NCBI GenBank assembly: GCA_017307785.1
Contig: JAFKGI010000012.1
Coordinates: 128,001-184,330, forward strand
Reading direction: 5' to 3'
DNA length: 56,330 bases
From: Vulcanimicrobiota bacterium
Lineage (GTDB): Bacteria; Vulcanimicrobiota; Xenobia; Xenobiales; JADMJV01
Position numbers and translations under genes: made by a program. Positions 16,707-42,708 of this stretch are shown here, piece after piece. Position 1 is the stretch's first letter. Each line of letters begins with the position of its first letter. The notes under the pieces were generated by a model that worked only from the letters and a program-made list of their open reading frames with translations, made no database searches and had not been told where the DNA came from.

Positions 16707-18263
16707 GTGTCCACTTGGCAGCAATTCACCCGGTTTTTTCTGCATTCTTCGAAACTGGGGATCAGCGTCGATCTCTCGCGCATGGGCCTGGACGATGCCT
16801 TCCTGGAGCAGATGCAGCCCAGAGCCGAGAAAGCCTGGACCGCCATCAACGAACTCGAGCGCGGTGCCATCGCCAACCCCGATGAAAACCGCATGGTCGG
16901 CCACTACTGGCTGCGCGACGCGGCCCTGGCCCCCACCGCGGAAATCCGCGCAGAAATCGAGCAGATGCTCAAAGACGTGGTCCACTTCGCCAACCAGGTA
17001 CACACCGGCGCGGTCAAACCGCCCATAAGACAACGATTTACGCGCGTCCTCTCGGTCGGCATCGGCGGTTCGGCGCTGGGACCGCAGTTCGTAGCCGAAG
17101 CCCTGGGCCAGAAAGACGACAAGATGAAACTCGTCTTCCTGGACAACACCGACCCCGACGGCTTTGACCGCATCCTCGACAGCGATCTCTCGGAAACCCT
17201 GACGGTGGTCATCTCCAAATCTGGTTCCACCCCGGAGACTCTCAACGGCATGCTGGAAGCCGCCCACGCCTACAAAAAGCAGGGACTGGACTTCGCCAAG
17301 CAGGCGGTGGCCGTCACCGGCGACGGTAGCGTCCTCTTCCAACAAGCAACCCGCGATGGCTGGCTGAGCATTTTCCCCATGTGGGACTGGGTGGGCGGAC
17401 GCACCTCCATCATGTCGGCCGTGGGCCTGGTGGGCATGGCCCTGCAGGGTCTGGACGTGCAAAAATTCCTCCAGGGCGCCGCCGACATGGACGGCTGGAC
17501 CCGCGCCAAAAACTGGCAGGACAATCCGGCCATGGCGCTGGCCCTGGCCTGGTACAAAGTGGGCGACGGCCAGGGCCACAAAGACATGGTCGTGCTCCCC
17601 TACAAAGATCGCCTGGCGCTCTTCTCGCGCTACCTGCAGCAACTGGTCATGGAATCGTTGGGCAAAGAAAAAGACCTGGACGGTAAGGTGGTCCATCAGG
17701 GCATCGCCGTCTACGGCAACAAAGGCAGCACCGACCAGCACGCCTACGTGCAGCAGTTGCGCGACGGCCTCAACAACTTCTTCGCCACCTTCGTGGTGGT
17801 CCTGAAAGACCGGAACACGGAGCCCTTCGAAGTCGAAACCGGCGTCACCGCCGGGGACTTCCTCAACGGCTTCTGGCAGGGCACGCGCCAGGCCCTGAGT
17901 GAAAACGGCCGCGCCAACGCCTGCATCACTCTGCCCGAAGTGAATGCCTATCAGGTCGGCGCCCTGATCGCCCTGTATGAGCGCACCGTCAGCCTTTACG
18001 CCCAGCTCACCAATATCAACGCCTACCACCAACCCGGTGTGGAAGCCGGCAAAAAAGCCGCCAAGACCGTATTGGAGCTGCAGAGCAAGCTGCTGGCCGC
18101 GCTGCAGACCGAGCCCGGCAGCTGGTGGAACGCCGAGACCCTGGCCCAGAAGCTCGAAGCCGACCCCGAGGCGGTCTTCCTGATGATGCGCCACCTGGCC
18201 ACCAACCGCGCCAACCTGCAGGCGCGCGGTGAAGGCCTGCAGCTGGAAATCTCCGTCCACTAA
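16707..18263 (+). CDS. pgi: Glucose-6-phosphate isomerase
   Basis: [35 protein letters not shown] signatures. Confidence 0.9.
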
Positions 18264-18745
18264 TGGAATTCGCCATTGTCTCCGACACCCATTGGCGCGA
18301 AGGCGGACCGGATTTAGATCGCCTGATCCACCGTCTCTACGGGGCCAAGTACATTCTCCACGCAGGCGACGCCGTCGACGTTTCCATCATCGAAGCCCTG
18401 GAACAAGTGGCGCCGGTGCTGGCCGTCATCGGCAACTGCTGCAACTCCAGCCTGCGCAATCGCTTCCCTCCCATGCGGGTGGACGATCTGGACGGCCTCA
18501 AAGTCGGCATGACCCACGGCCACCTCATCGATCTACGCGACGGACGCAGCATCCTCGACCAGTTCATCCCCGAGGTGAAACTGGTCATTCACGGCCACAC
18601 TCATCTGCCCCGTTGCGAAGAGCACGACGGCCGCTGGGTCTTCAACCCGGGCAGCGTCTCCGAACCCCGCCACGGCACCCCGCCCACCTACGGCTGGGCC
18701 AGCTGGGAAAACGGCGAGCTCAAACTCCAGCACAAGATGTTTTAG
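18263..18745 (+). CDS. Metallophosphoesterase (YfcE/MJ0936-like)
   Basis: IVSDTH, HAGD, GNCC, MTHGH, HGHTH metal-ligand motifs. TAATG overlap with pgi. Confidence 0.8.
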   Translation: MEFAIVSDTHWREGGPDLDRLIHRLYGAKYILHAGDAVDVSIIEALEQVAPVLAVIGNCCNSSLRNRFPPMRVDDLDGLKVGMTHGHLIDLRDGRSILDQFIPEVKLVIHGHTHLPRCEEHDGRWVFNPGSVSEPRHGTPPTYGWASWENGELKLQHKMF

Positions 18746-18999
18746 TATCGAACCCGGGTTCAGGGGAGCGAAGCGCACCGAACGCGGGTTAGAGACCAAC
18801 GGAGTCGCGCGCCTGAAAGTTTCGACCTTTTGTGGTAGCGCGCGACGGAGGCTAAACAGGCCGGGTCAAGCGCAAAGCACCGACCACAAAAGCCCAGTCG
18901 TCCACGGCCTCGCGGGCCAGCTCCCCTTCGCTGACCTCCTCCACAACGGCCACATCATCATCCTCTTCCAATACATCATCCATACCCCAAGCCTAAACG

Positions 19000-19031
19000 C
19001 AAAAACGGCGCCCCGCACGGGGCGCCGTTCC
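19000..19031 (-). terminator. Rho-independent terminator for the metalloprotease gene
   Basis: The minus strand reads GGCGCCCCG-TGC-GGGGCGCC followed by TTTTT, just 3' of the stop at 19050. Confidence 0.5.
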
Positions 19032-19049
19032 TAGCAAACCGGGACAGAA

Positions 19050-21593
19050 CTACTCGGCCTTCAAAGCCCGAGCCAGCGTCTGACTGCACTGGGCCAGATG
19101 GGCCCGCGTCTCCAGACTCAACTTGCCCTTGGCGGCTGCGTCGATCTGCGTCTTCAATTCGGCCGCCTGATAGCGCATCAAGCTCACCGCATCGCCCGGA
19201 GCTTTCGTATCCGGAGACAAGAAGGGCAACATCGACTTGATGTATTCCTTCTGCAAATCGCGACGCTGCTGGGGAACCTCGGTTCCAGCCGGAAGTTCCG
19301 ACCAAATGGCCGTCTGCAGTCCGTCATACAGCTCCGACAAGCGGAAGACCGAAGCCGAAGGATCCATCTTTTCGGGCGAATCGATGATGCGCTGGGCGAT
19401 GTCGTTGGCCAACAAACCGTTCAAGACATTGGCCTGGGTGCGCACGACCGCCGAACCCACGTGGATGTTCTGGTCGCCCCAGGTGTCAAAGCGGTCCTTG
19501 GCCAGACGGGCCACGAACTCGGGCTTGAACTTGAAGCTGTCGGGCGCAAAAAACGTCGTCAAAATCGAACCCAGCGCCGCCCGCTGCTTCTCGGCCGGAA
19601 CCGGCTCATAAGTGGCCTTGTCGGTGCCGGCCCGATCGCGGTGGATGCTGACGCCACCGATGTAGCGCGTCATAATCCGGCCCGAGCTGGCCAGCTTGTT
19701 GAGACCCGAGCTAAAAGCCCCGGTCAACTCCTGGTAGGATGCGCCCTCGGGCAACACCCGGTCCTGAGCCCGGCGCCACAGCTCGCGACCCAGCACCACC
19801 TGCTTGTCGGCAAAGGCCAACGGGTCGCTACCCAGGTCGAAGCGGTTCACCAGCGGGTCCATGCCGTCAGCGGCTTCGTCGGACTCGTAAGCCAGGGCCG
19901 GATCCTTGGTGGTCTGAGCGGCGATATCGGACAGCGTATCTTTCTCGCGGGCCGGATCGATCTGCTCGTAAGCATACTTGATGGCCAAATAATCGTATTT
20001 GCCCAAACCGGACTGCACGTACTCGCCCTGCTTCTCGCCGGGAGCGGCCAGGTTGAAGGGCTGGTAGTCCATCACCGAACTGCCCAGACCGTGCTCCGCG
20101 GTGTGAGCCGCATCCTGCAGCTGCTCGTCGTTGTTCAACAACGAGCCCTTAAAGTTGTGACGCAGACCCAGCGTGTGCCCGACCTCGTGGGTGGTTACGT
20201 TGCGCACATAAGCATTGGCCAGCTTCTGACCTTCCTCACTGTTACCGCGCACGTCCAGCAACTGCTGAGCGAACTGCGACTCCATGCCGGCGTGGTGCAT
20301 ATAACCGCACTGCTCGCCGTGCTCGTGCACGTGAGCGCTCTCGGCGGGCGGATTGTCCACCAAAAACTTCTGCGCCGAACGTCCGAACACGTCGGCCATG
20401 CGAATGTCGGCATCGAGAATCTCGCCGCTGCGTGGATCCACCTGCGACGGTCCCACCGCCGCGCCCACGTCGGAAGCGGTATACCAGCGGATGGAAGCGT
20501 GGCGCGCATCCATCGTGTCGAACTTATCGGCATCAGTCTGCTGGCGCACTTCGATGGCGTTCTTGAAACCGATCTGCTCGAAAGCCTTGTTCCATTCCAG
20601 CACGCCCTCGCGCACCGACTCGCGATATTTCTCGGGCACGTCCTTGGCGATCCAGTAAGTGATGGGCTTCTTCGGCTCAGACAGAGCCGCATCAGGATCG
20701 GCTTTCTCCAGGCGCCAGCGGTTGACGTAACGAACCTTCCCATCCGTATCGTCACCGGTGTAGTCCTTGCGAGTGGTCACGAAGTGACCGATGCGCTCGT
20801 CGGCCAGACGGGGCGTCATCGGCTCGTCCGGCAACTTGGAGAAGTTGTAGCGGAACTCGGTCAACAGGCTGCGCGAATCGGGCGTAGTGGAGGGCATGCT
20901 GCCGGTCTTGGGCGGAACCGGCGGAGCCTGAAAGTGAGCTTCCACGCCAAAGCTGGTCTGCTCATCGCAGTTGTCGGTGGCGGTGAAATGGGTGTTCTTC
21001 ACGTCCAGCCCAAAGGGCGTCTCGTAAGTGCGCGCCAGACGCATCTGATAAGCCGGAATGTCGGTGAAAAGCAGCGCGTTGGCCTCCACCACCACCGAGC
21101 CGTTGGGCCGTTTGCTGCCCACCATGGGGGCGCTGGCGATCAAGCTGTCGGAAAAGCCCTCTTTGACAAACTCGGCCTGAGGAGTGCCTTCTTCCGCGAA
21201 GTAGGTCGTGTTTTTGGCCACCAGTTGCACCTGGTTGCCGGCCAACCGGAACTCGGCCAGCTGGGAATCGCCCAGCTCCGATCCGGTCAGGTATTTCTCG
21301 CCCAGGCCCTTGGCCACGTTGGCGCTGAAAAAGAAGGGCTTCTTGAGCTGCTCGGGAGTCAGCTCCAGCCAGACTTTGTCGCCCTTCTTCAGAATCTTGA
21401 TAAAGCCGGGGATCTGTTCCGCGCCCTCGGTGGGGTCGGGAGGCTGGGCGGCTACCGCGGCTTTGGTCTCCGTGGTGCCGGCAGTGCCGGGAGTAAAGGT
21501 ATCTTTCTCGGTGGTCGTCGTCGCTTTCTCGGAAGCGGGGGGAATGAAGGCTCTGGGTTGGATGGAAGCGGAAGAAATCGACGGAACTGCCAC
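19050..21593 (-). CDS. Zinc-dependent met-zincin metalloprotease (DUF5117/DUF4953-type)
   Basis: HEVGHTLGLRHNF = HExxHxxGxxH. 847 aa. The overall layout matches the large bacterial zinc-dependent metalloprotease family. Confidence 0.75.
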   Translation of the reverse strand: MAVPSISSASIQPRAFIPPASEKATTTTEKDTFTPGTAGTTETKAAVAAQPPDPTEGAEQIPGFIKILKKGDKVWLELTPEQLKKPFFFSANVAKGLGEKYLTGSELGDSQLAEFRLAGNQVQLVAKNTTYFAEEGTPQAEFVKEGFSDSLIASAPMVGSKRPNGSVVVEANALLFTDIPAYQMRLARTYETPFGLDVKNTHFTATDNCDEQTSFGVEAHFQAPPVPPKTGSMPSTTPDSRSLLTEFRYNFSKLPDEPMTPRLADERIGHFVTTRKDYTGDDTDGKVRYVNRWRLEKADPDAALSEPKKPITYWIAKDVPEKYRESVREGVLEWNKAFEQIGFKNAIEVRQQTDADKFDTMDARHASIRWYTASDVGAAVGPSQVDPRSGEILDADIRMADVFGRSAQKFLVDNPPAESAHVHEHGEQCGYMHHAGMESQFAQQLLDVRGNSEEGQKLANAYVRNVTTHEVGHTLGLRHNFKGSLLNNDEQLQDAAHTAEHGLGSSVMDYQPFNLAAPGEKQGEYVQSGLGKYDYLAIKYAYEQIDPAREKDTLSDIAAQTTKDPALAYESDEAADGMDPLVNRFDLGSDPLAFADKQVVLGRELWRRAQDRVLPEGASYQELTGAFSSGLNKLASSGRIMTRYIGGVSIHRDRAGTDKATYEPVPAEKQRAALGSILTTFFAPDSFKFKPEFVARLAKDRFDTWGDQNIHVGSAVVRTQANVLNGLLANDIAQRIIDSPEKMDPSASVFRLSELYDGLQTAIWSELPAGTEVPQQRRDLQKEYIKSMLPFLSPDTKAPGDAVSLMRYQAAELKTQIDAAAKGKLSLETRAHLAQCSQTLARALKAE

Positions 21594-21775
21594 GGCTCTA
21601 GGTTTACCTCTGAATCGTATATTTTCCCGGGAGTTTGCTCCTCTGGGCCGATGTCAGAGTAGCCAAAAAACCTGAAAGAACCCTGAAAACAAAACTGTAA
21701 CAAGCGAGTTACCTGGTGTTCAAAACACGCAGGCCCGACTAACGCCGTCGTGCGGCCGATTTCTATACTAAAACC

Positions 21776-23188
21776 ATGCAGCTGACCTCCATTCCCAGCT
21801 TCCGGCCGCTGAAGAACTACAGCCGGGCCATGGCTCCCAACTTCGCACCCGACGTCGCTCCCAACGACACGGTCAGCCTGACCGGTCAGCCCAAAGTCAG
21901 CAAACTGCAGCAACGCCGCCTGGGAATGATGGTGGCTCTGGCCATGCTCTGCCTGCCCGCCTCCAGCGCGATGCTCCCCGTTCCCCAGGCACCCGTCCGC
22001 CACGAAATTCCAGCCGACAGTTGGGCCGCCGGCATCCCCGGTCGCGACCCGGTCGCCACTCGCCTGGAAGGCATTCAGCTCAGCCTCGAGACCGGCCACC
22101 TGACCGCCAAAGAGGCCGATGAACTGCGCCACAAATTGCAAAACCTGCCCACCAACCCGGAGAAACTGGCCCAGCGCCTGACCCGTTTTGACAGCCTCTA
22201 CGACGGTTATCGCCTGCCCAGCGATCCGCCCAGCAAGGACAAAGAGAAGAAGGAAGTCCCCGACCCGGCCATGGTCCAGCTGAACCATGAAAGCTTCCTG
22301 CTCTACGACACCAACGGCGACCGCGCCGTCACCCGCCGCGAACTGACCCGGGCCCTGACCGGCGTGCAGGACGGCCGCCTGGGAGCGACCGCCGCCGCCA
22401 TGGCCCCTCTCTTTGGCGAACTCTCGGGCAAGCTCGGCTACATCACCTGGTCGGCCCTGGACAACCCCACCCTGGCCCGTTACACGGACGTCTCGCTGCA
22501 GCGCCAGGCCAAACAGCCGGAGCTCAAGGACCTGTCTGAGGAAAGCTTCGATTCCAGCCGCATTCGTCAGCGCTTCCAGGGCAGCTGCGTGCTGCTCTCC
22601 ACCCTGATTGATCTGCCCGCCAAGCAGTTGCGCGAAATGATCACCGACAACCACGACGGCACCTTTACCGTGCACTTCCGCAACGGCAAGCAGGCCACCG
22701 TCAAAGACGTCACCGAGGCCGAACGCAGCTTTTTCTCCACCACCTTCGAAGGCGAACGTTGGCCGGCGCTCTTTGAAAAAGCCGTGGGCACGGTGCGCGC
22801 CTCGGAAGGCGTGGCCGGGGGCGACATCATCGCCGCCGGACGCACCATTCCGCCCACTGAGGCGATGGCCCTGATGACCGGACGCACCGGGGAATTCCGC
22901 CGAATTTCCGCTCTCGGCCCGTCAGGACTGCGCCAATTCCTGGTGGAAGCCCAACGCAATCACGAACCCATCATCGCCGGCATTTCAGAAACCGCCGGGA
23001 GCACGGGTCTGATCGGTCATCACGAATACGCCGTCAAAAGCTTCAACCCGTTCACCAACATGGTGACCTTGCGCAATCCTCACGGCACCGGCGTCTGGAA
23101 CCAGAGCAAACTGGACGAAAACGGCCTCTTCGAAATGCCCCTCAAGGAATTCTACAATCACTATCACAATATCACCGCCCTGAAATAA
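21776..23188 (+). CDS. Calpain-like (C2 family) cysteine peptidase with an EF-hand
   Basis: QGSCVLLSTL (Cys box, cf. calpain QGxLGDCW), GLIGHHEYAV (His box, cf. GHAYSV), VTLRNPHGTGVWN (Asn box, cf. RLRNPWG). The EF-hand loop is DTNGDRAVTRRE (DxNxDxxxxxxE). TM-like segment near the N-terminus. Confidence 0.7.
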   Translation: MQLTSIPSFRPLKNYSRAMAPNFAPDVAPNDTVSLTGQPKVSKLQQRRLGMMVALAMLCLPASSAMLPVPQAPVRHEIPADSWAAGIPGRDPVATRLEGIQLSLETGHLTAKEADELRHKLQNLPTNPEKLAQRLTRFDSLYDGYRLPSDPPSKDKEKKEVPDPAMVQLNHESFLLYDTNGDRAVTRRELTRALTGVQDGRLGATAAAMAPLFGELSGKLGYITWSALDNPTLARYTDVSLQRQAKQPELKDLSEESFDSSRIRQRFQGSCVLLSTLIDLPAKQLREMITDNHDGTFTVHFRNGKQATVKDVTEAERSFFSTTFEGERWPALFEKAVGTVRASEGVAGGDIIAAGRTIPPTEAMALMTGRTGEFRRISALGPSGLRQFLVEAQRNHEPIIAGISETAGSTGLIGHHEYAVKSFNPFTNMVTLRNPHGTGVWNQSKLDENGLFEMPLKEFYNHYHNITALK

Positions 23189-23243
23189 CCGTTGTGGGAA
23201 AAATTCCCAGACAGGCCGGCTGACGACCCCTAAGCTTGACAGT

Positions 23244-25142
23244 ATGACTGAAACAACTGTCAACACCAGCCGCAAGGTGCCCCTGGGACCGGGAACCTTG
23301 CTCGCTTTCCGAGACGGTTCCCCCGCCCCCGCCCGCACCATCGGACTGCAGGCGCGCATTCGCCTGAGCGGTCCCCTGGCCGCCGTCGAACTCCGCCACA
23401 GCTTCACCAACCCCTACCCACACGCTCTGGAATTCTGCTATCTCTTCCCCTGGAACGAAGGCGCCAGTCTGTCTCGCTTTCGCGCTCAAATCGGCACGCG
23501 CACCCTGGAAACTCTGCCGGCCGCCAGCCAGGAACTGGCGGAAAACCGCCGCCCCACCGCCCTGGCCCCCTATTTCGCCGAAGAATCCGCTCCCGTCTTC
23601 TCCGTCGGGCTAGGCCTGTTAGAACCCGGAGAAACGGTCGCCATCGAGCTTTTCTACGCCGAACTCAGTCAGGACTTTCACTTTCCCCTGGCGGGCTGCC
23701 CGCAGGCGCAACTGCAGATCCTGTTGGAAGCGCCCACCGCCTACGAGTGCAACCTGCCGGTCCGCAGACAGGTTCTGGCCAACGGCGACGTGCTGCTCGA
23801 CCCCGGCCCCGGTCCCTTCTCGCAAGATCTGGTCCTGTCGCAGCACCGCCAGCTGGTGCTGCGCCAATCGCCCCACCATTTTCTGCTGCAAACGCCCGAT
23901 CCCAACAGCACCTCCCGGGACCTGGTCCTTCTGATCGACGGCTCAGAAAACGCCACGCCCGAGCGCTTTGCCGCCGCCCAACAGCTGGCTCGCCAACAGC
24001 TAACCCAACTGGACGCCCACAGCCAGTTCGCGCTGGTGAGCTTCCATCATCAGATCGAAGGCTTCGAACTGGGCGCCTTCCAGCCCCAGAGCAAAGCGGA
24101 GGCAGCCCTGCAGTGGCTGGCCCGGCAGCGCCCCGCCGGCCGGGCCGACATGGCCGTGCTGCTCGAGCGCGTCCTCAGCTTGCCCCGCCGGGGTCCCCTG
24201 GAAGTACTGCTCATCGCCTGTGGCCCCGTCGGCAACGAACCTGAGCTCTACGCCCAGGTGTGCGCTGCCCCTCAACCACCGGTGTTTCGCACCGTCGCTC
24301 TCGGTCCCGCCAACCACGCCTTCCTGCGCCGCCTGGAAGCCGTTACCCGCCCTAATCCCTGGGTCGATCAGGGCCTGCAGGCTCAGCAGGCCAGCTGCAC
24401 CGGCATTCACACCGTGCTGGGGCGCAAATCCGGCACCGGCGGAGTCTCCTGGCAAGGCCAGCCGGCCGCTCCCAACCCCTGTGCCAACCCGGCCCTTCCG
24501 ATGCTGTGGGCCAGCCACAAAGTGGCCGAAATGCTGGACGAACTCAAGCTGGTACATGGTCCACGCGCCTCGCAACTGCGCCAGATCTCTCAGGCCCTGT
24601 GCCGCGAGTATCGGCTCATGACGGAGATCTCTCCCATGACCGTGGACGGCAAGCAACTGGCCGGGCTCGACCCCCAAAGCTGGACCCGATCCACCCCACC
24701 TCCCGTCCTCAAGCCACGGATTCGACCGGTGTTGGTAAGCGAACCTCCGCCGGTGCGGGCCGGCCTGGTTCCCCCGCAAGGCTCCACCCCTTCCCCCACC
24801 GGACTCAAAGCCAAAATCAGCCAGTCCAAAAAATACGACGCCAAACGCAAACCCAGCAAGCCCGCCCTTAAAAAGACCCATCCCGTAGCCCAGGCAAAAC
24901 GATTGCTTGCAATCGATCGGGAAGCCTGGAAAAGCGAACTGCGGGCCCTGTATCGCGACCGCCAGGCCGATCAGCTGGCCATCCTGCTGGTCCGCCTGCG
25001 CTTCCTCAGCGACCGCTCGTCCGTGCTGGCCGAAGTCTATCGAATTGGCCTGGCCTGCTACCAGGGTTTGCGCGCCGGCCACCCCAAAGCGGGAGAACGG
25101 GCCGCCCAGTGGGTGGAAAAGTTCGCCAGCCTGTTCAAATAG
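23244..25142 (+). CDS. VIT + von Willebrand factor A domain protein
   Basis: N-terminal VIT-like region. LVLLIDGSENATPERF resembles a vWA MIDAS-type start. Long Pro-rich linker and helical C-terminus. Assignment is approximate. Confidence 0.5.
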   Translation: MTETTVNTSRKVPLGPGTLLAFRDGSPAPARTIGLQARIRLSGPLAAVELRHSFTNPYPHALEFCYLFPWNEGASLSRFRAQIGTRTLETLPAASQELAENRRPTALAPYFAEESAPVFSVGLGLLEPGETVAIELFYAELSQDFHFPLAGCPQAQLQILLEAPTAYECNLPVRRQVLANGDVLLDPGPGPFSQDLVLSQHRQLVLRQSPHHFLLQTPDPNSTSRDLVLLIDGSENATPERFAAAQQLARQQLTQLDAHSQFALVSFHHQIEGFELGAFQPQSKAEAALQWLARQRPAGRADMAVLLERVLSLPRRGPLEVLLIACGPVGNEPELYAQVCAAPQPPVFRTVALGPANHAFLRRLEAVTRPNPWVDQGLQAQQASCTGIHTVLGRKSGTGGVSWQGQPAAPNPCANPALPMLWASHKVAEMLDELKLVHGPRASQLRQISQALCREYRLMTEISPMTVDGKQLAGLDPQSWTRSTPPPVLKPRIRPVLVSEPPPVRAGLVPPQGSTPSPTGLKAKISQSKKYDAKRKPSKPALKKTHPVAQAKRLLAIDREAWKSELRALYRDRQADQLAILLVRLRFLSDRSSVLAEVYRIGLACYQGLRAGHPKAGERAAQWVEKFASLFK

Positions 25143-25180
25143 CCGAAGGTTGAGGCGCCCCCCTTGGAAAAGTCTATCGT

Positions 25181-26944
25181 ATGCTATCCGGCGAAGACCA
25201 GGAGGCCCTGCGTTTCGAGAGCTACCGAGAACTGGCGCGCACCACCGCGCCCACGGTACCGGTTTACCCGGCCCTGGTAGCCGGCTGCTCGTTGGCCAGC
25301 TCCTTTGGCCGGGAACACTGGGTGGCGGTGCTGGCCCTGGTGCTGAGCACCGCCGTGGCCGGCTTGATCCGACTGCTGCTGGCCCGTCGCCTGCTGGCCC
25401 AACCCGACCCCATTCCCCTCTCCCTGATCGGCAGCTATCGACTGGCCGCCATCCTGGTCGGGCTCAGCTGGGGCCTCTTCAACGCCGCCTCTGTCTATTG
25501 GTACGGCACCGGCTGGGCCTCGCAACTGGCCATGGTGGTGACGGTAGGACTGACCGCCGGTGCCACCAGCACGCTGGCCAGCGATCTCAACCTCTTCCGG
25601 GTCTACACGGTGGTCATGCTGCTTCCCGGCAGCCTGTTGCTGGCCGCGCTGGGGGGCCGTGACGCCCTCTCCAGCCTGCCGCTCTTCGTCTTCATGATCT
25701 TCATCGGAGCCACCGGCCGCCAGCACAATCACCGCTACTGGAAATCCATTCGCAGCGAACGCTTGCTCAAGCGCCGCACCGATCAGCTGGAGGAAGCCAA
25801 CCTGGCCAAAAGCCAGTTTCTGGCCACCATGAGCCACGAAATTCGCACTCCCATGAACGCCGTCATGGGAATGACCGAGCTGCTCATGGATAGCGAACTC
25901 AAGCCGGCCCAACAAGAATGGGTCAGCGCCCTGCGCGGCGGCTCCCAGACCTTACTCTCGATTATCACCGGCATCTTGGACCTGGCCAAAATTGAGTCGG
26001 GCAAGCTGGAAATGGAGCAGCAGCCCTATGATCTGGTGGCCGGTCTGCGCGACACCGTCACCCTCTTCGAAACCGCCGCGCGCCAAAAAGGCCTGGAGCT
26101 CAAGTCAGCCTGGGAGCCCGCTCCCGTCTGGCTGCTGGGAGACAGCCTGCGCGTGCGCCAGATTCTCTCCAACCTCATCAGCAACGCCCTCAAGTTCACC
26201 CAGGAAGGCTGCATTTCGGTCGAGCTCCACTGGCCGCAACCCGACCAGGCGGAACTGCGCATTCGCGACAGCGGCGAAGGCGTGCCGGCCGAAAAACTCG
26301 ACCGCTTGTTTCAGCCCTTTTCCCAGGCCGACGCCTCCATCAGCCGGCGCTACGGAGGCACCGGCCTGGGATTGGCCATCTGCTGGCAGTTCGCCCGTCT
26401 CCTCAACGGCTGGATCTGGATGGTAAGCCGCTCCGGTCAGGCCGGTCAAACTCCCCCCGGTTGGCAGCTGCAGCCCTGTGACCAGGGCTCGTGCTTCTAT
26501 TTCCGCTGGCCGGTGCAGCGCATCGAGCCGCCCGCCGTGGAAGCGGCCCAGGGTACGCCCCTACCCCCCGGTCTGCGCATTCTGGTGGCCGAGGATAACG
26601 CAGTCAACCGTCGCGTCATCGCCACCATATTGCAGAAACTGGGCTACCAGGCTCAGCTGGTGGAGAACGGCGAGCAGGCCGTGCAGGCCTGCCGACAAGA
26701 CCCTTACGAAGTCATCTTCATGGATATCCAGATGCCGATTCTCGACGTAGTTTCCGCCACCAGGCAGCTGCGGAGCCTGGAACTGAACCCGCGACCCTGG
26801 GTGGTGGCCCTCACGGCCAACGCCTTCCGCGAAGACCGCGAGGCCAGTCTGGCCGCCGGCATGGACGATTTTCTGAGCAAGCCGGTCCGCCAGATCGATG
26901 TGGAAACCGCTCTACGCCGCTACGTAGGCACACGAGTACTCTAA
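25181..26944 (+). CDS. Hybrid sensor histidine kinase / response regulator
   Basis: Multi-TM N-terminus, H-box LATMSHEIRTPMNAV, HATPase_c (NLISNALKFT, DSGEGV, GGTGLGLAI), C-terminal receiver ILVAEDNAVNRRV...FMDIQMP...KP. Confidence 0.85.
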   Translation: MLSGEDQEALRFESYRELARTTAPTVPVYPALVAGCSLASSFGREHWVAVLALVLSTAVAGLIRLLLARRLLAQPDPIPLSLIGSYRLAAILVGLSWGLFNAASVYWYGTGWASQLAMVVTVGLTAGATSTLASDLNLFRVYTVVMLLPGSLLLAALGGRDALSSLPLFVFMIFIGATGRQHNHRYWKSIRSERLLKRRTDQLEEANLAKSQFLATMSHEIRTPMNAVMGMTELLMDSELKPAQQEWVSALRGGSQTLLSIITGILDLAKIESGKLEMEQQPYDLVAGLRDTVTLFETAARQKGLELKSAWEPAPVWLLGDSLRVRQILSNLISNALKFTQEGCISVELHWPQPDQAELRIRDSGEGVPAEKLDRLFQPFSQADASISRRYGGTGLGLAICWQFARLLNGWIWMVSRSGQAGQTPPGWQLQPCDQGSCFYFRWPVQRIEPPAVEAAQGTPLPPGLRILVAEDNAVNRRVIATILQKLGYQAQLVENGEQAVQACRQDPYEVIFMDIQMPILDVVSATRQLRSLELNPRPWVVALTANAFREDREASLAAGMDDFLSKPVRQIDVETALRRYVGTRVL

Positions 26945-27217
26945 ATAGAGGATTTACCCCCATACCCGCCCGGCCCGAAACTCGCTATAGTCTCTTTAGC
27001 GGGGACGCCGCCGCGGGTGAAAAAATTCCCTCACAGGCGTCCTCGGAAGAATTTTAACGTGAACGAAAAATCAGGCGATTTCCCTTTGGGTTCGTCTCCG
27101 GCGTGATACCCGGAGCAGCTTCACAGAGCCGTAAGGCTCATCCTCGCCGTGGGTTCTTTCTGCTCGCGCTATAAATTGTAGAAGCCTCGTCAGAGTTCTG
27201 GCGGGGCTTCGAGTTTT

Positions 27218-27640
27218 TCAGGGCAAAAGCGAACATTCCAGCCAGTAGCTCAGACAACGATGCAGCATCTGCTGCAGCTTGCGCGCATCCACCGGCTTCA
27301 GCAAATGGCCCTGGGCTCCCAGGCGAAAACTACGGACCGTATTGCTCTCTCGATGCGAGCCGCTCATCATGATCACCGGGTCCAGGCGAGTCTGCGGATG
27401 CTCCCGCAAGTGGCGCAATAACTGGTGTCCGTCCAGCCCCGGTAAACCCAGGTCGATAAAAAAAATACCCGGCGGGCGCACGCAGCTCTGGTCCAAGCTG
27501 CGCAACACATCTCCCACCCGTTTCCACTGCAGCAACGAGGCATCCGGAGCAATCGAATGCAGGGCCCGGGCAAAAGCCAGCGAGTCCGCCTCGCAATCTT
27601 CCACCAGATGGACCACCCGATTCAATTCCAGAGCCATCAT
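27218..27640 (-). CDS. Single-domain response regulator (CheY-like receiver)
   Basis: VHLVEDCEAD, FFIDLGLPGLDG, conserved KP near the C-terminus. Confidence 0.8.
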   Translation of the reverse strand: MMALELNRVVHLVEDCEADSLAFARALHSIAPDASLLQWKRVGDVLRSLDQSCVRPPGIFFIDLGLPGLDGHQLLRHLREHPQTRLDPVIMMSGSHRESNTVRSFRLGAQGHLLKPVDARKLQQMLHRCLSYWLECSLLP

Positions 27641-27727
27641 AGGATGCTATACTCTGCGCCCCCGCCTGGCAAAGTACGCCAATCCCGGGTCAGAGGAATG
27701 GCCCGCCGGCCCGAAAAAGACGCTCCT

Positions 27728-28456
27728 ATGGACTCGGAACACCATCGCTCGCTCCAGGACGTGGCCAGACTGCAGGCCCTCAAGCTCACCGGCCTGATGG
27801 ATTCTTTACCCGAAGCGTCCTATGATCGCTTCGTGCGCCTGGCCTCCCGTCTGACCGGCTCGCCCAAGGCCTTTCTCTCGCTGGTGGACGATCGCCGCCA
27901 GTTCCTCAAAGCCACCCACGGCGAAGAAAACCCGGCCCGCGAAACCCCGCTCAGCCATTCTTTCTGTCAGTATGTGGCCAGCACCGGACAACCGCTGGCC
28001 ATCGAAGACGCCCGCTTCCATCCCACCGTCAAAGACAACCCCGCCATCCAGGAAAACGAGATCATCGCCTACCTCGGTTCCCCGCTGCTGGCTCAGGGCA
28101 AATGCATCGGCTCCCTGTGCGTAACCGATAAGAACCCGCGCCGCTGGGGCTGGGCCGATCGCCAGGCCCTCAACGATCTGGCCGCCTGCGTCAACAGCGA
28201 AATCGAACTGCGCACCACCAACGCCCTGAGCCAGGGCCTGGCCGAACTACTGCCGGCCGTCGTCTATCTGAGCGACCCGACCAGCGGCGAGATTTTGTAT
28301 CGCAACGAAACCGCCCGCGACTACGACCTCACAGCCCTGAGCGACCGCGACACCCTGGAGCTGACCCATCGCGACGGAAGCCACCACCGTTTCAGCCACC
28401 ACACAGCTCCCTTTGGGGACGGCCAGCTCCTGGGCGTGGCCACCCGCCTACCGTGA
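27728..28456 (+). CDS. GAF domain protein
   Basis: FCQYVASTGQPLAIEDARFHP...IAYLGSPLL...GSLCVTDKNPRRW GAF core. Start at MDSEHH. The ORF is open further upstream. Confidence 0.65.
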   Translation: MDSEHHRSLQDVARLQALKLTGLMDSLPEASYDRFVRLASRLTGSPKAFLSLVDDRRQFLKATHGEENPARETPLSHSFCQYVASTGQPLAIEDARFHPTVKDNPAIQENEIIAYLGSPLLAQGKCIGSLCVTDKNPRRWGWADRQALNDLAACVNSEIELRTTNALSQGLAELLPAVVYLSDPTSGEILYRNETARDYDLTALSDRDTLELTHRDGSHHRFSHHTAPFGDGQLLGVATRLP

Positions 28457-29302: not shown

Positions 29303-29662
29303 ATGGATAACGAACACAAGATTCCCCCCACCATTGACAATCAGTTGGAAGGAATGCGCAGCCGCCGCCCCGCCGACAGCCGCAGCGAAGACTACAACGA
29401 AGGCTCGGACGACAACGACCTCGGAATCGCCATCGATCCCATCAGCGCCGACGACGGCACCCCCGACCAGATCTCGGCCGTCGAGCAAATCCAGGCCACC
29501 TGGTCCCCCGGCGCCCCCGAAACCGCCTTCGGAGCCGTCCCTCCCGAAAACGACGACGAAGAAATCTCCGCCCAGAGCATCCGCGCCGACCGCGATCCCG
29601 AAGAGAACTTCGAAGACCCCGATCTCGACAACCTCGACGCCCACTCCAGCCTCGACCTCTAA
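29303..29662 (+). CDS. Hypothetical highly acidic protein
   Basis: 119 aa rich in Asp/Glu. GAGGAG 9 nt before the ATG. Confidence 0.45.
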   Translation: MDNEHKIPPTIDNQLEGMRSRRPADSRSEDYNEGSDDNDLGIAIDPISADDGTPDQISAVEQIQATWSPGAPETAFGAVPPENDDEEISAQSIRADRDPEENFEDPDLDNLDAHSSLDL

Positions 29663-29685
29663 AACCAGGCACCCCCGGGCGCACT

Positions 29686-30160
29686 GCCGCCACCGGTGGG
29701 CGCAATGCCGACACCGGTGAGCGCGCCGGCACCCGTAGACGCGCCGACACCGGTAGGCGCAATGCCGGCACCGGTGAGCGCGCCGATACCGGTAGGCGCA
29801 ATGCCGATACCGGTGGCGCGCCGACACCGGTGGGCGCAATGCCGACACCCGTGAGCGCGCCGACACCGGTGGGCGCAATTCCGGCACCGGTGAGCGCGCT
29901 GACACCCGTAGGCGCAATTCCGACACCCGTAGGCGCGCCGACACCCGTAGACGCGCCGATACCGATAGGCGCGCCAATACCGGTAGGCGCAATTCCGACA
30001 CCCGTAGACGCGCCGACACCGGTAGGCGCAATGCCGACACCGGTAGGCGCAATTCCGCCACCCGTAGGTGCGCCGGCACCCGTGAGCGCGCCGACACCGG
30101 TAGGCGCAATTCCGCCACCCGTAGGTGCGCCGACACCGGTAGGCGCAATTCCGCCCCCCC
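29686..30160 (+). repeat. Coding tandem repeat array (18- and 21-nt units encoding PTPVGA(I/M)-type peptides)
   Basis: More than 20 imperfect units, gcgccgacaccggtaggc / gcaat(g/t)ccgacacc(g/c)gt(g/a)agc. One unit at 29811-29820 has GG where the others have GGG. An 8-C run follows at 30153-30160. Confidence 0.85.
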
Positions 30161-30220
30161 AAGCAAGCCCCAAACCCCAAAGTAGGCCCATCCGCAAAAC
30201 CGCAGAATTCCCAGCAGGAG
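29704..30220 (+). pseudogene. PTPVGA-repeat protein segment disrupted by a frameshift
   Basis: Frame 2 reads MPTPVSAPAPVDAPTPVGAMP... from ATG 29704 and then hits TGA at 29852-29854 after the G-run shortening. The same peptide repeat continues in frame 1 from 29830 to about 30160. It is either disrupted or a homopolymer sequencing error. Confidence 0.4.
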
Positions 30221-31165
30221 ATGTTCCCCTTCTTCCAGCGCCAACCGCCCACGCCCAAAGTCATCTACCTGCGCGGCGAGCCTACCAAAACCGGCCAGGA
30301 CATCCAGGAGCAACCGCAACATCTAGGCGAAATCTTGCAATCCCTGGCCCCACCTGCCCTGCTCCTGCGCCTCCCGGAAACGATCCAGGCCGCAGCCCTC
30401 CAGGTCATCCCCTGGCTCTGGCAAGAACGCGGCTTTCACTTCCCGCCCATCACCCTCGAGCGCGCCACTCACCCCACCCTGACCGTCCTCGACCAGGGCG
30501 AAACTCCGCTCCACCTGGCCCATCCCCACTTCACCGCCACCGAGCAGGCCCAACTCCAGCTGCAGAGCGCCCTGCTCGACAACCTGCCGCGCTTCCTCAA
30601 CCGCGACTACGTGCTGACCCAGGCTCCCGACCTTGACCCCAGGCTGCTCAGTCGTCTGAGCAAGTATCTGCGCACTCTCCTCCAGGCCGGCTGGACTCTC
30701 CCCTCGCCTGACCAGTGGCACGCCCTGGCCAGCCAACCCTTCGACGAAATCGCCCGGGGCCTGGAACCAGTCCACGCCCGCATTCCCCTCCAACCCCAAG
30801 AGCGCACCGAGCTACTCTTCCAGGCCCTGATCGAAGAGCGCACCGGCCCGGCGATCTTTCAGGCCATCGAGGAATTCTGGGTAGCCAGCGGCCGCATCTT
30901 CCCGCTGCTCCAGACTACTTCCCAAAATCTCATCCGCGAACTCCTGAGGAACCCGGCCGAGGACCTGCACAACTGGGCCCGCCACACTCCCGATTTCGAA
31001 GAGCAGATCCTACAAAGCCAGCAACGACCCGCCACCACTTTGCCGCGCTTCACCCGTCTGGCCATCCTGGGCCAGGACCTCAGTTCCGAAGCGAAAATCC
31101 CCTTTGCGCAAGTGCTGGCCACCCCCGCCCAGGAAAGATGGGCCCGTCAACGCCTGGGCCCCTAA
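30221..31165 (+). CDS. Hypothetical protein (possibly the C-terminal domain of the repeat protein)
   Basis: 314 aa, non-repetitive, high GC3. The same frame stays open upstream to 30143, inside the repeat array, so a fusion via a +1 shift at the poly-C tract is possible. Confidence 0.5.
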   Translation: MFPFFQRQPPTPKVIYLRGEPTKTGQDIQEQPQHLGEILQSLAPPALLLRLPETIQAAALQVIPWLWQERGFHFPPITLERATHPTLTVLDQGETPLHLAHPHFTATEQAQLQLQSALLDNLPRFLNRDYVLTQAPDLDPRLLSRLSKYLRTLLQAGWTLPSPDQWHALASQPFDEIARGLEPVHARIPLQPQERTELLFQALIEERTGPAIFQAIEEFWVASGRIFPLLQTTSQNLIRELLRNPAEDLHNWARHTPDFEEQILQSQQRPATTLPRFTRLAILGQDLSSEAKIPFAQVLATPAQERWARQRLGP

Positions 31166-41421: not shown

Positions 41422-42708
41422 TCAAGGAACGACCACGCCCACCTGATCCAGACCAGAAATGCCAAACCACAGGTTGCCGTCCGGCCCCGGATTGATGCCA
41501 TAAGGCCGCGACAAAGCGGTCAGTGCTGCAGAGGTAAACTCGCTCACCACACCGGTCTGCGTGATCCGCCCCAGCCGGCCTCCCTGGTACTCGGTAAACC
41601 AGAGGTTCCCGTCCGCTCCGGCACAGATGCCGACCGGCCTCGCCGCCGCGCTGATCCCCGAGGAGAACTCCGTAATCACACCGGCCGGGGTGATCCGCCC
41701 GATGCGATTCCCGCCGAACTCGGTGAACCACAGGTTGCCGTCCGGTCCCGCGCAAATCCCTTCGGGCGCGGACCCGGCCGTAATTCCAGTCGAGAACTCT
41801 GTCACCACCCCCGCGGTGGTGATACGTCCAATGCGATTCCCGCCGAAGTCGGTGAACCACAAATTACCATCCGGACCGCTGCAAATCTGGCTGGGGAGAG
41901 CTCCTCCGCTAATTCCCGCGGAAAACTCGGTGATGACGCCGGCAGGCGTGATGCGCCCGATGCGGCCGCTATTCTGCTCGGCGAACCAGAGATTTCCATC
42001 CGGTCCCGCACAAATTCCGTAAGGACCGCTTGCAGCCGTAAGTCCCGCCGAGAACTCGGTGACTACCCCGGCCGTCGTGATCCGTCCGATGCGGTTTCCG
42101 GCAATCTCGGTGAACCACAGATTCCCATCCGGTCCGGCGCAGATGACATAGGCCTGAGCGCCGCTGGTCAGGCCGGGAAATTCGGTGACAGCGCCACTAC
42201 TGGGATTCAACCGGCCAACCCGATCTCCGCCGTTCTCGATGAACCAGAGGTTGCCGTCGGGTCCCGCGCAAACGCCGGTTGGAGCAGCCCCTGCGGAAAT
42301 ACCGGTGCTCACGGCCTGAATGGTTCCGACGGGCGGAACCACCCGCAGGTTAGAGTTCGCACTCAGCCCACCGAAAGCCGCCGTAATTGTGGCCGACACC
42401 GCCGGAATCACCTGGGTCAGAGACTGGCCCGTGGCCAGGCCGCTGTTGGAAACCACACTGGCGGCCCCCGGATTGGAAGAAGTCCAGGTCGCCAGATTGG
42501 CCACGTTCGCACTCTGACCATCGCTGCTGGTAGCGGTCGCCACAAACTGCAGGGTCTCGCCCGAATGAATGCGGGCAGAAACGGGACTGACCGCCAAACC
42601 CGTCAGGGTCGGCAACGGGACGAAGCCCCGATCTCCACTCGTGCTACTGCCGCAGCCCAGTGCGAACAGCGCCAGACTTAAAATTGTCGTACGCAATGCA
42701 GAACTCAT
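41422..42708 (-). CDS. Vgb (streptogramin B lyase)-like 7-bladed beta-propeller lipoprotein with Big_2-like N-domain
   Basis: Lipobox LALFALGCGSS. The Big_2-like segment is LTGLAVSPVSARIHSGETLQFVATATSSDGQS. Seven repeats of ICAGPDGNLWFTE....IGRIT..G...EF. Confidence 0.75.
   Translation of the reverse strand: MSSALRTTILSLALFALGCGSSTSGDRGFVPLPTLTGLAVSPVSARIHSGETLQFVATATSSDGQSANVANLATWTSSNPGAASVVSNSGLATGQSLTQVIPAVSATITAAFGGLSANSNLRVVPPVGTIQAVSTGISAGAAPTGVCAGPDGNLWFIENGGDRVGRLNPSSGAVTEFPGLTSGAQAYVICAGPDGNLWFTEIAGNRIGRITTAGVVTEFSAGLTAASGPYGICAGPDGNLWFAEQNSGRIGRITPAGVITEFSAGISGGALPSQICSGPDGNLWFTDFGGNRIGRITTAGVVTEFSTGITAGSAPEGICAGPDGNLWFTEFGGNRIGRITPAGVITEFSSGISAAARPVGICAGADGNLWFTEYQGGRLGRITQTGVVSEFTSAALTALSRPYGINPGPDGNLWFGISGLDQVGVVVP

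What the first reader, a model, noticed from the sequence alone, without database searches (positions are those of the whole stretch)
21776..23188. Bacterial calpain-like protease with a canonical EF-hand, next to a VIT-vWA protein and a hybrid histidine kinase
All three calpain catalytic boxes are present and intact: QGSC, GHHEYAV and LRNPHG. A 12-residue loop DTNGDRAVTRRE satisfies the EF-hand pattern D-x-N-x-D-x6-E. That would make it a Ca2+-regulated calpain analogue in a bacterium.

The downstream genes encode a VIT+vWA domain protein and a hybrid sensor kinase (23244-26944), which may form a signalling unit.
Basis: partly seen in the sequence, partly recalled or inferred. Interest (0 to 1): 0.55.

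Follow-up and report, generated by a model that had tools for sequence, protein, structure and literature searches.

The report
Bacterial calpain protease with conserved EF-hand
This gene from an uncultured Eremiobacterota bacterium encodes a calpain-type cysteine protease fused to a calcium-binding EF-hand pair; the same fusion occurs in well over a hundred bacterial protein clusters, although published surveys say bacterial calpains have no EF-hands.

Summary

It is a true calpain (peptidase C2) homologue:
- Pfam PF00648 scores 35.9 bits (cut-off 23.8).
- hhalign to human calpain-1 gives 99.3% probability.
- Gln265, Cys271, His416 and Asn434 are invariant in 91 relatives.

The EF-hand is real and conserved. 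DTNGDRAVTRREL matches PROSITE PS00018 exactly (16 of 20,000 shuffles do). Asp1 and Glu/Asp12 of the loop are about as conserved as the catalytic residues. The modelled sub-domain matches two-EF-hand proteins. Its partner loop is degenerate, and the calcium sites of the classical calpain core are not intact. This one loop is therefore the only recognisable Ca2+ site.

The window's clade also has an N-terminal signal-like hydrophobic segment, so the protease is probably exported or membrane-anchored.

EF-hand pair plus calpain core is a large, undescribed bacterial family. Of 149 cluster representatives, 113 have the canonical loop. Members come from Melainabacteria, Sericytochromatia, Eremiobacterota and others.

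The proposed calpain/VIT-vWA/histidine-kinase unit is not supported, because the adjacency disappears in orthologues. Ca2+ regulation is untested.

Verdict: a new variant of a known kind, of moderate interest.

The parts
21776..23188 (+). Whole gene: 470-aa EF-hand/calpain-like cysteine protease (the stop codon is included)
   Evidence: ORF list. The same gene is called on ENA/NCBI contigs. A near-identical NCBI protein, MBN9416336.1, is named 'hypothetical protein [Candidatus Eremiobacteraeota bacterium]'.
21776..21919 (+). N-terminal tail, residues 1-48. Predicted disordered and basic just before the hydrophobic segment (K..K..RR).
   Evidence: pLDDT is 32-36 for residues 1-40. The motif APNF.PD...SD[ST]V[AS][IL] is conserved with in-frame indels among orthologues, so this region is translated.
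21920..21976 (+). Hydrophobic segment, residues 49-67 (LGMMVALAMLCLPASSAML). It looks like a signal peptide (h-region, then Pro, then small-x-small) or a signal anchor.
   Evidence: Kyte-Doolittle 17-residue maximum is 1.97 at residue 51. The segment is present in all orthologues P0001-P0013 but absent from 76 of 91 family members. A helix is modelled at 43-57. Topology (N-terminus in, C-terminus out) is inferred from the positive charges on the N-terminal flank.
22043..22225 (+). Helical region, residues about 90-150 (three helices), of unknown role
   Evidence: AF2 helices 92-105, 111-120 and 128-146 with pLDDT 85-95. A test of whether it is a degenerate EF unit found no significant similarity (E >= 0.2).
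22265..22510 (+). EF-hand pair, residues about 164-245. The first hand is canonical. The second is degenerate (Ala227 at loop position 12).
22307..22342 (+). Canonical 12-residue Ca2+-binding loop D178-E189 (DTNGDRAVTRRE)
   Evidence: Exact PS00018 match. D178 and E189 are at least 90% conserved in both A1 and A2. Pfam EF-hand_6 scores 16.6 bits, below the cut-off of 25.
22529..23185 (+). Calpain-type protease core (CysPc, PC1+PC2), residues 252-470
22568..22588 (+). Oxyanion-hole Gln265 through catalytic Cys271 (QRFQGSC)
   Evidence: Q265 and C271 are invariant in 91 sequences and align to CAPN1 Q109 and C115.
23021..23077 (+). Catalytic His416 through Asn434 (and Pro435)
   Evidence: H416, N434 and P435 are invariant in 91 sequences and align to CAPN1 H272 and N296.
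23244..25142 (+). Neighbour only: VIT + vWA protein (632 aa). Not part of a conserved unit with the protease.
   Evidence: Pfam. The orthologue (67% identical) lies about 5.5 kb from the calpain gene in L008/L012 and is absent from more distant orthologue loci.
25181..26944 (+). Neighbour only: membrane hybrid histidine kinase (587 aa). It stays next to the VIT gene in relatives, not next to the protease.
   Evidence: Pfam and NCBIfam. tblastn gives 76% identity over the first 198 aa, directly after VIT in L008. The only terminator-like hairpin downstream on the + strand is at 27181-27210.
19050..21593 (-). Divergent neighbour: Met-zincin (DUF5117 + DUF4953, 847 aa). Conserved only in the closest relatives.
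   Evidence: Pfam E=4.7e-73. It is 83% identical and in the same position in L007/L008/L012 and absent from other orthologue loci.

Best explanation
The gene encodes a single-chain calpain-family (peptidase C2) cysteine protease. Its catalytic core is preceded by a two-EF-hand domain with one functional-looking Ca2+ loop.

Domain order:
- a basic N-terminal tail
- a signal-peptide-like or signal-anchor hydrophobic segment
- a helical region
- the EF-hand pair
- the CysPc core

Shown here: homology and fold of the core; an intact Gln/Cys/His/Asn active site; a canonical, strongly conserved EF loop; and loss of the Ca2+ sites that switch on the core of classical calpains.

Inferred:
(a) The EF-hand and protease portion is exported or displayed on the outer face of the cytoplasmic membrane.
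(b) Ca2+ binding at D178-E189 orders the EF pair, which packs on the core, and thereby stabilises or activates the protease. The enzyme would then become competent only after leaving the low-Ca2+ cytoplasm.
(c) It acts alone on unknown envelope or extracellular protein substrates, not as part of a conserved operon.

It belongs to a large bacterial family in which the EF-hand pair plus CysPc core is the conserved module. Most members lack any export signal and would be cytoplasmic Ca2+-responsive proteases.
For: Calpain core:
- PF00648 35.9 bits against a cut-off of 23.8.
- hhalign to CAPN1 (sequence verified 100% against PDB 7x79_A): 99.3% probability, E 1.1e-20, covering CAPN1 residues 101-350.
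- Foldseek: the top 36 PDB hits are all calpains (protease-core or full-length structures).
- Q265, C271, H416 and N434 are invariant in 91 sequences at 20-71% identity.

EF-hand:
- Exact PS00018 match, reached by 16 of 20,000 shuffles.
- Loop columns in 91 relatives: D88, N45/D43, D69/N18, G61/R10, L/V/I 91, E84/D7.
- 113 of 149 cluster representatives have an exact PS00018 loop 60-130 residues upstream of the catalytic Cys; 136 have a relaxed one.
- The family profile hits calmodulin.

Core Ca2+ sites lost: CAPN1 D106->R262, E302->V440, D309 falls in a 19-residue deletion, D331->N449, E333->L451. Only E185->E327 is kept.

Export: the hydrophobic segment is conserved in all orthologues, with basic residues on its N-terminal side and a P-A-[AS]-S-A-like motif after it.

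Solitary gene: neighbours differ among orthologues.
Against: - No biochemical data exist, so Ca2+ binding and Ca2+ dependence are predictions.
- In this protein the Pfam EF-hand score is below the curated cut-off (16.6 against 25).
- This clade has Arg, not Gly, at loop position 6, and the partner loop is degenerate (Ala227). Affinity may therefore be low or the site purely structural.
- Topology was judged by hydropathy and charge only; no dedicated signal-peptide or TM predictor was available. The roughly 48-residue n-region is atypical for a Sec signal.
- The alignment used for the AF2 model was shallow (16 sequences), and no coordinates or PAE could be inspected, so the EF-core packing was not examined.
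- In the window the three genes are co-directional with 55- and 38-bp gaps and no terminator between them, so local co-transcription with VIT and the kinase is not excluded.
Confidence: 0.6

Rival explanations
1. The EF-hand is only a structural relic. The protease is constitutively active, or is regulated by something other than Ca2+, such as autoprocessing or an inhibitor. The loop either binds Ca2+ permanently as a structural ion or does not bind it at all.
For: - This clade has Arg at loop position 6, where 61 of 91 relatives have Gly.
- The partner loop has lost its acidic position 12 (Ala227, against Asp in 72 of 91).
- The Pfam EF-hand score is sub-threshold.
- If the domain is extracytoplasmic, ambient Ca2+ would usually saturate a site, leaving little room for signalling.
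Against: - Loop positions 1, 3, 5, 8, 9 and 12 all keep liganding or structural residues and match PS00018, which allows Arg at position 6.
- D178 and E189 are about as conserved as the catalytic residues across 91 sequences. That argues for selection on metal binding.
- Structural and regulatory roles are not mutually exclusive.
Confidence: 0.25
2. One reading: the protease, the VIT-vWA protein and the hybrid histidine kinase form one functional signalling unit. For example, the protease would process the VIT-vWA protein or the kinase.
For: - In the window the three genes share a strand with gaps of 55 and 38 bp.
- No terminator-like hairpin lies between them; the first on the + strand is at 27181-27210.
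- VIT and kinase orthologues stay adjacent to each other in relatives.
Against: - In L008/L009/L012 (68% identical protease) four phosphorelay genes (about 5.5 kb) separate the protease from the VIT-kinase pair. In L007 (71%) the same kind of phosphorelay genes (REC/Hpt) follow the protease, and the contig ends before any VIT or kinase gene.
- Orthologues at 64%, 61%, 56% and 44% identity and a 30-36% relative have no VIT or kinase gene in their flanks.
- In the close relatives collinearity extends to housekeeping genes (PGI 91% identical). It therefore reflects recent common ancestry, not selection for linkage.
Confidence: 0.08
3. It is a cytoplasm-facing, membrane-tethered Ca2+ sensor protease (N-terminus out, C-terminus in) that responds to rises in intracellular Ca2+, as classical calpains do.
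For: - 76 of 91 family members have no hydrophobic N-terminal segment. The ancestral setting of the module is therefore probably cytoplasmic.
- A single canonical EF loop is typical of sensors.
Against: - The basic residues (K, K, R, R) lie on the N-terminal side of the hydrophobic segment, while its C-terminal flank carries about no net charge in this protein (R75, H76, E77, D82) and is acidic in orthologues. By the positive-inside rule the N-terminus stays in the cytoplasm.
- The h-region is short (about 12 residues before the Pro) and is followed by a small-x-small motif, like a cleavable signal peptide.
Confidence: 0.07

Closest known systems
Bacterial calpain homologues (MEROPS family C2; surveyed by Rawlings 2015, PMC4631099, and for cyanobacteria by Veselenyiova et al. 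2022, PMC9380684)
   Same: A CysPc-type core with the Gln/Cys/His/Asn active site. No calpain-III/CBSW domain and no penta-EF-hand domain. The core Ca2+ sites are largely lost. Some members are predicted secreted or membrane-associated. Distribution across phyla is patchy.
   Different: Those surveys state that no bacterial homologue possesses an EF-hand domain and that bacterial calpains share only CysPc with other calpains. Here a canonical EF-hand pair sits immediately N-terminal to the core and is conserved across a large family. The protease-only bacterial homologues (Myxococcota, Gemmataceae, Calothrix, Lysobacter) match only the core part of the profile.
Classical eukaryotic calpains (CAPN1/CAPN2 large subunit)
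   Different: - In classical calpains the EF-hands form a C-terminal penta-EF-hand domain used for dimerisation and follow a CBSW domain. Here a single EF pair lies N-terminal and the protein ends with the core.
- Activation of classical calpains depends on two Ca2+ sites inside the core (established knowledge; residues listed in PMC4631099). These are not intact here.
- There is a 19-residue deletion after the Asn box, and His replaces the Trp of NPWG.
- Classical calpains are cytosolic, whereas this one is probably exported.
Bacterial EF-hand proteins fused to other domains (survey in PMC7016017), and membrane-anchored EF-hand proteins such as Pseudomonas aeruginosa EfhP (own knowledge, not checked here)
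   Same: A calmodulin-like EF-hand pair used as an accessory module on a bacterial protein. In EfhP it is combined with an N-terminal membrane anchor.
   Different: In that paper the only occurrence of the word 'calpain' is in an unrelated passage (wolframin), and none was found in the discussion of bacterial EF-hand fusions. Here the partner is a protease core.

Membership tests
Peptidase family C2 (calpain, CysPc core) | Significant match to the family profile (Pfam PF00648) above the curated threshold | tested here: met
   35.9 bits against a gathering score of 23.8, E 5.6e-9, residues 252-444 on model positions 39-250 of 297. 90 of 91 relatives also match.
Peptidase family C2 (calpain, CysPc core) | Catalytic Cys, His and Asn plus the oxyanion-hole Gln, in calpain order and aligned to those of calpain-1 | tested here: met
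   Q265/C271/H416/N434 align to CAPN1 Q109/C115/H272/N296 and are invariant in 91 sequences.
Peptidase family C2 (calpain, CysPc core) | Two-subdomain calpain core fold, closer to calpains than to other papain-like clans | tested here: met
Peptidase family C2 (calpain, CysPc core) | Proteolytic activity sensitive to cysteine-protease inhibitors (E-64, leupeptin) | not testable with these tools
   Needs a biochemical assay.
Classical (Ca2+-activated, PEF-containing) calpains | C-terminal penta-EF-hand domain and a calpain-III/CBSW domain | tested here: not met
   The protein ends at residue 470 with the core. There are no Calpain_III or C-terminal EF-hand hits. The only EF-hand is N-terminal (residues 164-245).
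Classical (Ca2+-activated, PEF-containing) calpains | Two Ca2+ sites within the protease core (CAPN1 V99/G101/D106/E185 and E302/D309/M329/D331/E333; own knowledge. The equivalent rat calpain-2 residues are listed in PMC4631099) | tested here: not met
   From the hhalign mapping: D106->R262, E302->V440, D309 deleted, D331->N449, E333->L451. Only E185->E327 is retained.
Canonical EF-hand (calmodulin-like) | 12-residue loop with liganding residues at positions 1, 3, 5 and 12, a hydrophobic residue at 8 (PROSITE PS00018), and flanking helices | tested here: met
   DTNGDRAVTRREL matches PS00018 exactly. Helices 164-177 and 187-196 flank it. Position 6 is Arg, which the pattern allows, rather than the usual Gly.
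Canonical EF-hand (calmodulin-like) | Profile match above the curated threshold | tested here: inconclusive
   The window protein scores 16.6 bits on EF-hand_6, below the cut-off of 25. However, the family profile A1 hits about 170 calmodulin chains at E about 2e-7 to 5e-6, and 23 of 91 relatives hit EF-hand_6 at E <= 1e-3.
Canonical EF-hand (calmodulin-like) | Paired EF-hand four-helix fold | tested here: met
Canonical EF-hand (calmodulin-like) | Measured Ca2+ binding | not testable with these tools
   Needs ITC, 45Ca overlay or a structure with the ion.
Conserved protease/VIT-vWA/histidine-kinase gene unit | Gene adjacency maintained among orthologues beyond general genome collinearity | tested here: not met
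   Adjacent only in the window and in identical contigs. In 68% relatives they are separated by about 5.5 kb. In five more distant loci the VIT and kinase genes are absent.

The most novel reading that the evidence does not exclude
Bacteria independently built a Ca2+-gated calpain. In this family an N-terminal EF-hand pair, rather than intrinsic core sites or a C-terminal penta-EF-hand domain, would be the sole Ca2+ switch of the CysPc core. That would give Melainabacteria, Sericytochromatia, Eremiobacterota and others genuine Ca2+-regulated limited proteolysis, cytoplasmic in most members and triggered after export in this clade. Coupling a calpain core to EF-hands would then have arisen at least twice, or would predate eukaryotes.
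Probability: 0.3. Interest if true: 0.7.

Novelty: new variant of a known kind. Interest (0 to 1): 0.5.

Why it matters
Calpains are the textbook Ca2+-activated proteases of eukaryotes. The published view is that bacterial homologues are rare, lack EF-hands and are mostly Ca2+-independent (PMC4631099; PMC9380684).

This gene points to a large bacterial family that contradicts the 'no EF-hand' part:
- 167 cluster representatives match at E <= 1e-30 and 1,457 at E <= 1e-10.
- Among the best 150, three quarters carry a canonical EF-hand loop fixed at the same place in front of the core.

If the loop gates activity, the family offers three things:
- a minimal single-chain model (about 300 residues, one Ca2+ site) for how an EF-hand can control a calpain core;
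- a new candidate effector of bacterial Ca2+ signalling;
- a data point on whether EF-hand/calpain coupling is convergent or ancient.

If the loop is only structural, the finding is a useful correction to domain-architecture surveys and little more.

Tried and rejected
- **Single-sequence search against PDB sequences:** phmmer found nothing at E <= 1. Profile and fold searches were needed.
- **NCBIfam:** no family for the protease.
- **Residues 73-160 as a degenerate second EF-hand unit:** the idea came from relatives that have canonical loops spaced about 91 residues apart. An HMM of the EF unit against the N-terminal parts of 16 family sequences gave E >= 0.2, so the idea was dropped.
- **Lipoprotein signal (Cys59):** the Cys is not conserved in orthologues, which have F, A, G or S there. 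Rejected.
- **Tat signal (the RR at residues 47-48):** the twin Arg is not conserved in orthologues. Not supported.
- **Conserved operon with VIT-vWA and the kinase:** rejected on synteny.
- **A second calpain paralogue in the window:** none found.
- **Foldseek against AFDB50**, to see how UniProt names such proteins: the library was unavailable.
- **Literature:** searches for a described bacterial EF-hand calpain found none in the held library. This is an absence in that library, not proof of absence.
Full report
**1. The observation**

The window holds an ATG-started ORF at 21776-23188 (+) of 470 aa. Gene callers call it identically on two public metagenome contigs.
- QGSC, residues 268-271
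- GHHEYAV, residues 414-420
- LRNPHG, residues 432-437
- DTNGDRAVTRRE, residues 178-189

The downstream genes are as described:
- 23244-25142 encodes a VIT protein (36.8 bits, cut-off 26.5) with a VWA domain just under threshold.
- 25181-26944 encodes a HisKA/HATPase_c/receiver hybrid kinase.

A near-identical NCBI protein (MBN9416336.1) is labelled 'hypothetical protein [Candidatus Eremiobacteraeota bacterium]'. A 56% orthologue is labelled 'C2 family cysteine protease [Vulcanimicrobiota bacterium]'. The closest genome hits are Vulcanimicrobiota MAGs, a phylum that NCBI places in Bacteria.

**2. It is a true calpain homologue with an intact active site**

- Pfam Peptidase_C2 matches above its gathering score (35.9 against 23.8 bits, E 5.6e-9).
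- A profile of 91 relatives aligns to residues 101-350 of human calpain-1 with 99.3% probability and E 1.1e-20.
- An AlphaFold2 model (mean pLDDT 81.8, pTM 0.76, residues 90-470 confident) finds only calpains among its top 36 Foldseek PDB hits (best E 8.8e-10).
- Gln265, Cys271, His416 and Asn434 align to CAPN1 Gln109, Cys115, His272 and Asn296. With Trp329 and Pro435 they are the only invariant columns in 91 sequences sharing 20-71% identity.

**3. The EF-hand is real, conserved and the only recognisable Ca2+ site**

*Chance.* The loop plus the next residue matches PROSITE PS00018 exactly. Only 16 of 20,000 composition-preserving shuffles of the protein produce any match. It is the single match in about 60,000 residues of six-frame stop-free stretches (>=100 aa) in the window.

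*Pfam.* For this protein alone the EF-hand models are sub-threshold (EF-hand_6 16.6 bits against 25). Conservation therefore carries the argument.

*Conservation.*
- All 14 full-length relatives (28-71% identity) keep a PS00018 loop at the homologous place. The most distant ones are the most canonical: DLDHNGSLSREE and DENGDGRLGASE.
- In 91 diverse relatives the loop columns read as follows:
  - position 1: D in 88
  - position 3: N in 45, D in 43
  - position 5: D in 69, N in 18
  - position 6: G in 61, R in 10
  - position 8: L/V/I in 91
  - position 12: E in 84, D in 7
- Phe174, Asp178 and Glu189 are at least 90% conserved.

*Profile and fold.*
- The family profile hits about 170 calmodulin chains (E about 2e-7 to 5e-6) through this segment.
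- The model shows two helix-loop-helix units with short paired strands.

*The partner loop.* It is degenerate across the family (the N-terminal half is variable and often shortened). In this protein it has Ala227 where 72 of 91 relatives have Asp at position 12.

*The core Ca2+ sites.* The residues that form the two Ca2+ sites inside the classical calpain core map as follows:
- D106 -> R262
- E185 -> E327 (kept)
- E302 -> V440
- D309 -> lost in a 19-residue deletion
- D331 -> N449
- E333 -> L451

The core switch of classical calpains is therefore not intact, and one EF loop is the only predicted Ca2+ site.

**4. A large family that the literature does not describe**

Scoring the 16-sequence profile against 1.84 billion cluster representatives gave 4,522 hits at E <= 1e-3, 1,457 at E <= 1e-10 and 167 at E <= 1e-30. 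Nearly all of the best 150 align from about profile position 150-175 to the end, which is the EF pair plus the core.

Among the 164 proteins then in hand (P0001-P0164, which include those best 150), 149 have room upstream of a QxxxGxC motif:
- 113 have an exact PS00018 loop 60-130 residues before the catalytic Cys.
- 136 have a relaxed loop.

Across all 164 proteins, 29 have two or more loops and 3 have four or more (up to eight).

In species-representative bacterial genomes the EF-plus-core module occurs in these groups, some on contigs of 2.9-6.9 Mb:
- Vulcanimicrobiota/Eremiobacterota
- Obscuribacterales/Melainabacteria
- Sericytochromatia/Blackallbacteria
- some MAGs labelled Deltaproteobacteria, Planctomycetales and Armatimonadetes

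Myxococcota, Gemmataceae, Calothrix, Lysobacter and Dyella homologues match the core only.

Pfam detects Peptidase_C2 in 90 of 91 relatives and EF-hand_6 in 23 of 91. Automatic annotation therefore already shows the architecture for part of the family.

Rawlings (2015) states that no bacterial homologue possesses the EF-hand domain. Veselenyiova et al. (2022) state that bacterial calpains share only CysPc with other calpains. My literature searches found no paper describing the fusion.

**5. Location**

Residues 49-67 (LGMMVALAMLCLPASSAML) form a hydrophobic segment. It is preceded by K/K/R/R and followed by Pro and a small-x-small motif. This arrangement is conserved in all orthologues down to 44% identity. 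The 48-residue tail before it is conserved with in-frame indels, so it is translated.

By the positive-inside rule (inference) the EF-hand and protease portion is outside the cytoplasm, either released by signal peptidase or anchored. By contrast, 76 of 91 family members have no hydrophobic N-terminal segment. The module is therefore probably cytoplasmic in most lineages and was secondarily exported in this clade.

**6. The neighbourhood does not define a unit**

In the window the three genes are co-directional with 55- and 38-bp gaps. The first terminator-like hairpin on their strand is at 27181-27210, so local co-transcription is possible.

Relatives break the linkage:
- The 68-71% relatives share the upstream PRPP synthase, PGI, phosphoesterase and divergent Met-zincin genes.
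- In the 68% relatives (L008, L009, L012) a four-gene REC/Hpt/hybrid-kinase block of about 5.5 kb lies between the protease and the VIT gene.
- The 71% relative's contig (L007) shows the first three genes of such a block and ends before any VIT or kinase gene.
- In the 68% relatives VIT remains followed by the kinase orthologue.
- Orthologues at 64% and 61% are followed by a small ORF plus a PIN-domain gene.
- Those at 56% and 44%, and a 30-36% relative, have unrelated neighbours.

The stable pair is VIT-kinase. The protease is a solitary gene that sits next to that pair in this genome only.

**7. Mechanism proposed**

Shown: an active-site-complete calpain core, one canonical conserved EF loop in an EF pair directly upstream, and loss of the core Ca2+ sites.

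Inferred:
- After export, Ca2+ occupies D178/N180/D182/E189.
- The EF pair becomes ordered and stabilises or activates the adjoining core.
- Activity is thereby restricted to the Ca2+-rich outside.
- In the cytoplasmic majority of the family the same module would make proteolysis respond to intracellular Ca2+.

Main rival: the site is only structural, or weak in this clade (Arg at position 6, degenerate partner loop). Substrates are unknown.

**8. Verdict**

Relative to what is known this is a new variant of a known kind: a bacterial C2 peptidase with a conserved N-terminal EF-hand pair, contrary to published generalisations, and a different architecture from classical calpains. Interest is moderate (0.5). 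It would be higher if Ca2+ gating were demonstrated.

Noticed in passing
window 29678-30153: A tandem array with an 18-nt period (about 24 copies; also scored at periods 39, 57 and 192). It lies between two genes called on the matching public contig (window equivalents 29303-29662 and 30221-31165). Several frames on both strands stay open across it; one reads as PTPVGA-like hexapeptide repeats (ORF 29830-30636).
   Followed up: no
window 41663-44118: Tandem repeats of 126-129 nt (2-5 copies per scored array, 67-74% matches). In one frame the consensus reads GPDGNLWFTE, which suggests a repeated roughly 42-residue propeller-like unit in large ORFs there.
   Followed up: no
window 21764-21778: A TATACT hexamer ends 6 nt before the protease's ATG, and no Shine-Dalgarno-like sequence is visible between them. 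This may mean a leaderless or very short-leader mRNA. The promoter scan did not call it because it lacks a good -35 element.
   Followed up: partly
L008 7971-13281, L009, L012 and L007 9458-12107: Relatives with a 68% identical protease (L008, L009, L012) carry a four-gene phosphorelay block (REC-Hpt-REC-Hpt protein, Hpt, REC, 864-aa hybrid kinase) between the protease and the VIT gene. The window lacks it. L007 (71%) shows the first three of these genes, and then the contig ends.
   Followed up: partly
L027, L029, L035, L045, L046, L047, L051 (Melainabacteria/Obscuribacterales MAGs): Calpain homologues of about 1,100-1,220 residues (stop-free stretches) with 7-8 canonical EF-hand loops. They are flanked by separate proteins of 570-760 residues that carry 4-6 EF-hand loops and match only the EF part of the profile, forming local clusters of EF-hand repeat genes.
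   Followed up: no
L017 7305-9830 and L022 4332-7040: Two EF-hand/calpain paralogues sit in tandem in a Sericytochromatia MAG and in a Planctomycetales MAG. One Vulcanimicrobiota MAG (bin.189_sub) has at least three paralogues on different contigs (L012, L028, L040).
   Followed up: no
window 16707-25142 compared with L007/L008/L012: Neighbouring genes diverge at very different rates between the same genomes: PGI 91-92% identical, Met-zincin 83%, protease 68-71%, VIT-vWA 66-67%. The protease and VIT genes evolve much faster than their housekeeping neighbours.
   Followed up: partly
window 27218-27640 (-) and 27557-28456 (+): The longest ORF for the GAF protein overlaps the convergent... rather, the oppositely oriented receiver-domain gene by 84 nt. 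Gene callers on the public contig start the GAF gene later (252 aa, window equivalent 27698). The true start is therefore probably downstream of 27557.
   Followed up: no
whole window: GC skew is negative in all but the first 2-kb bin (+0.002), reaching about -0.35 at 44-50 kb, and most long ORFs lie on the + strand. This is a strongly C-rich coding strand at about 61-65% GC.
   Followed up: no
L005 7292-7929 and L010 4493-5109: In the 61-64% orthologue loci the protease gene is followed directly by a 77-84-aa ORF overlapping a 130-aa PIN-domain gene (VapBC-like toxin-antitoxin arrangement).
   Followed up: no
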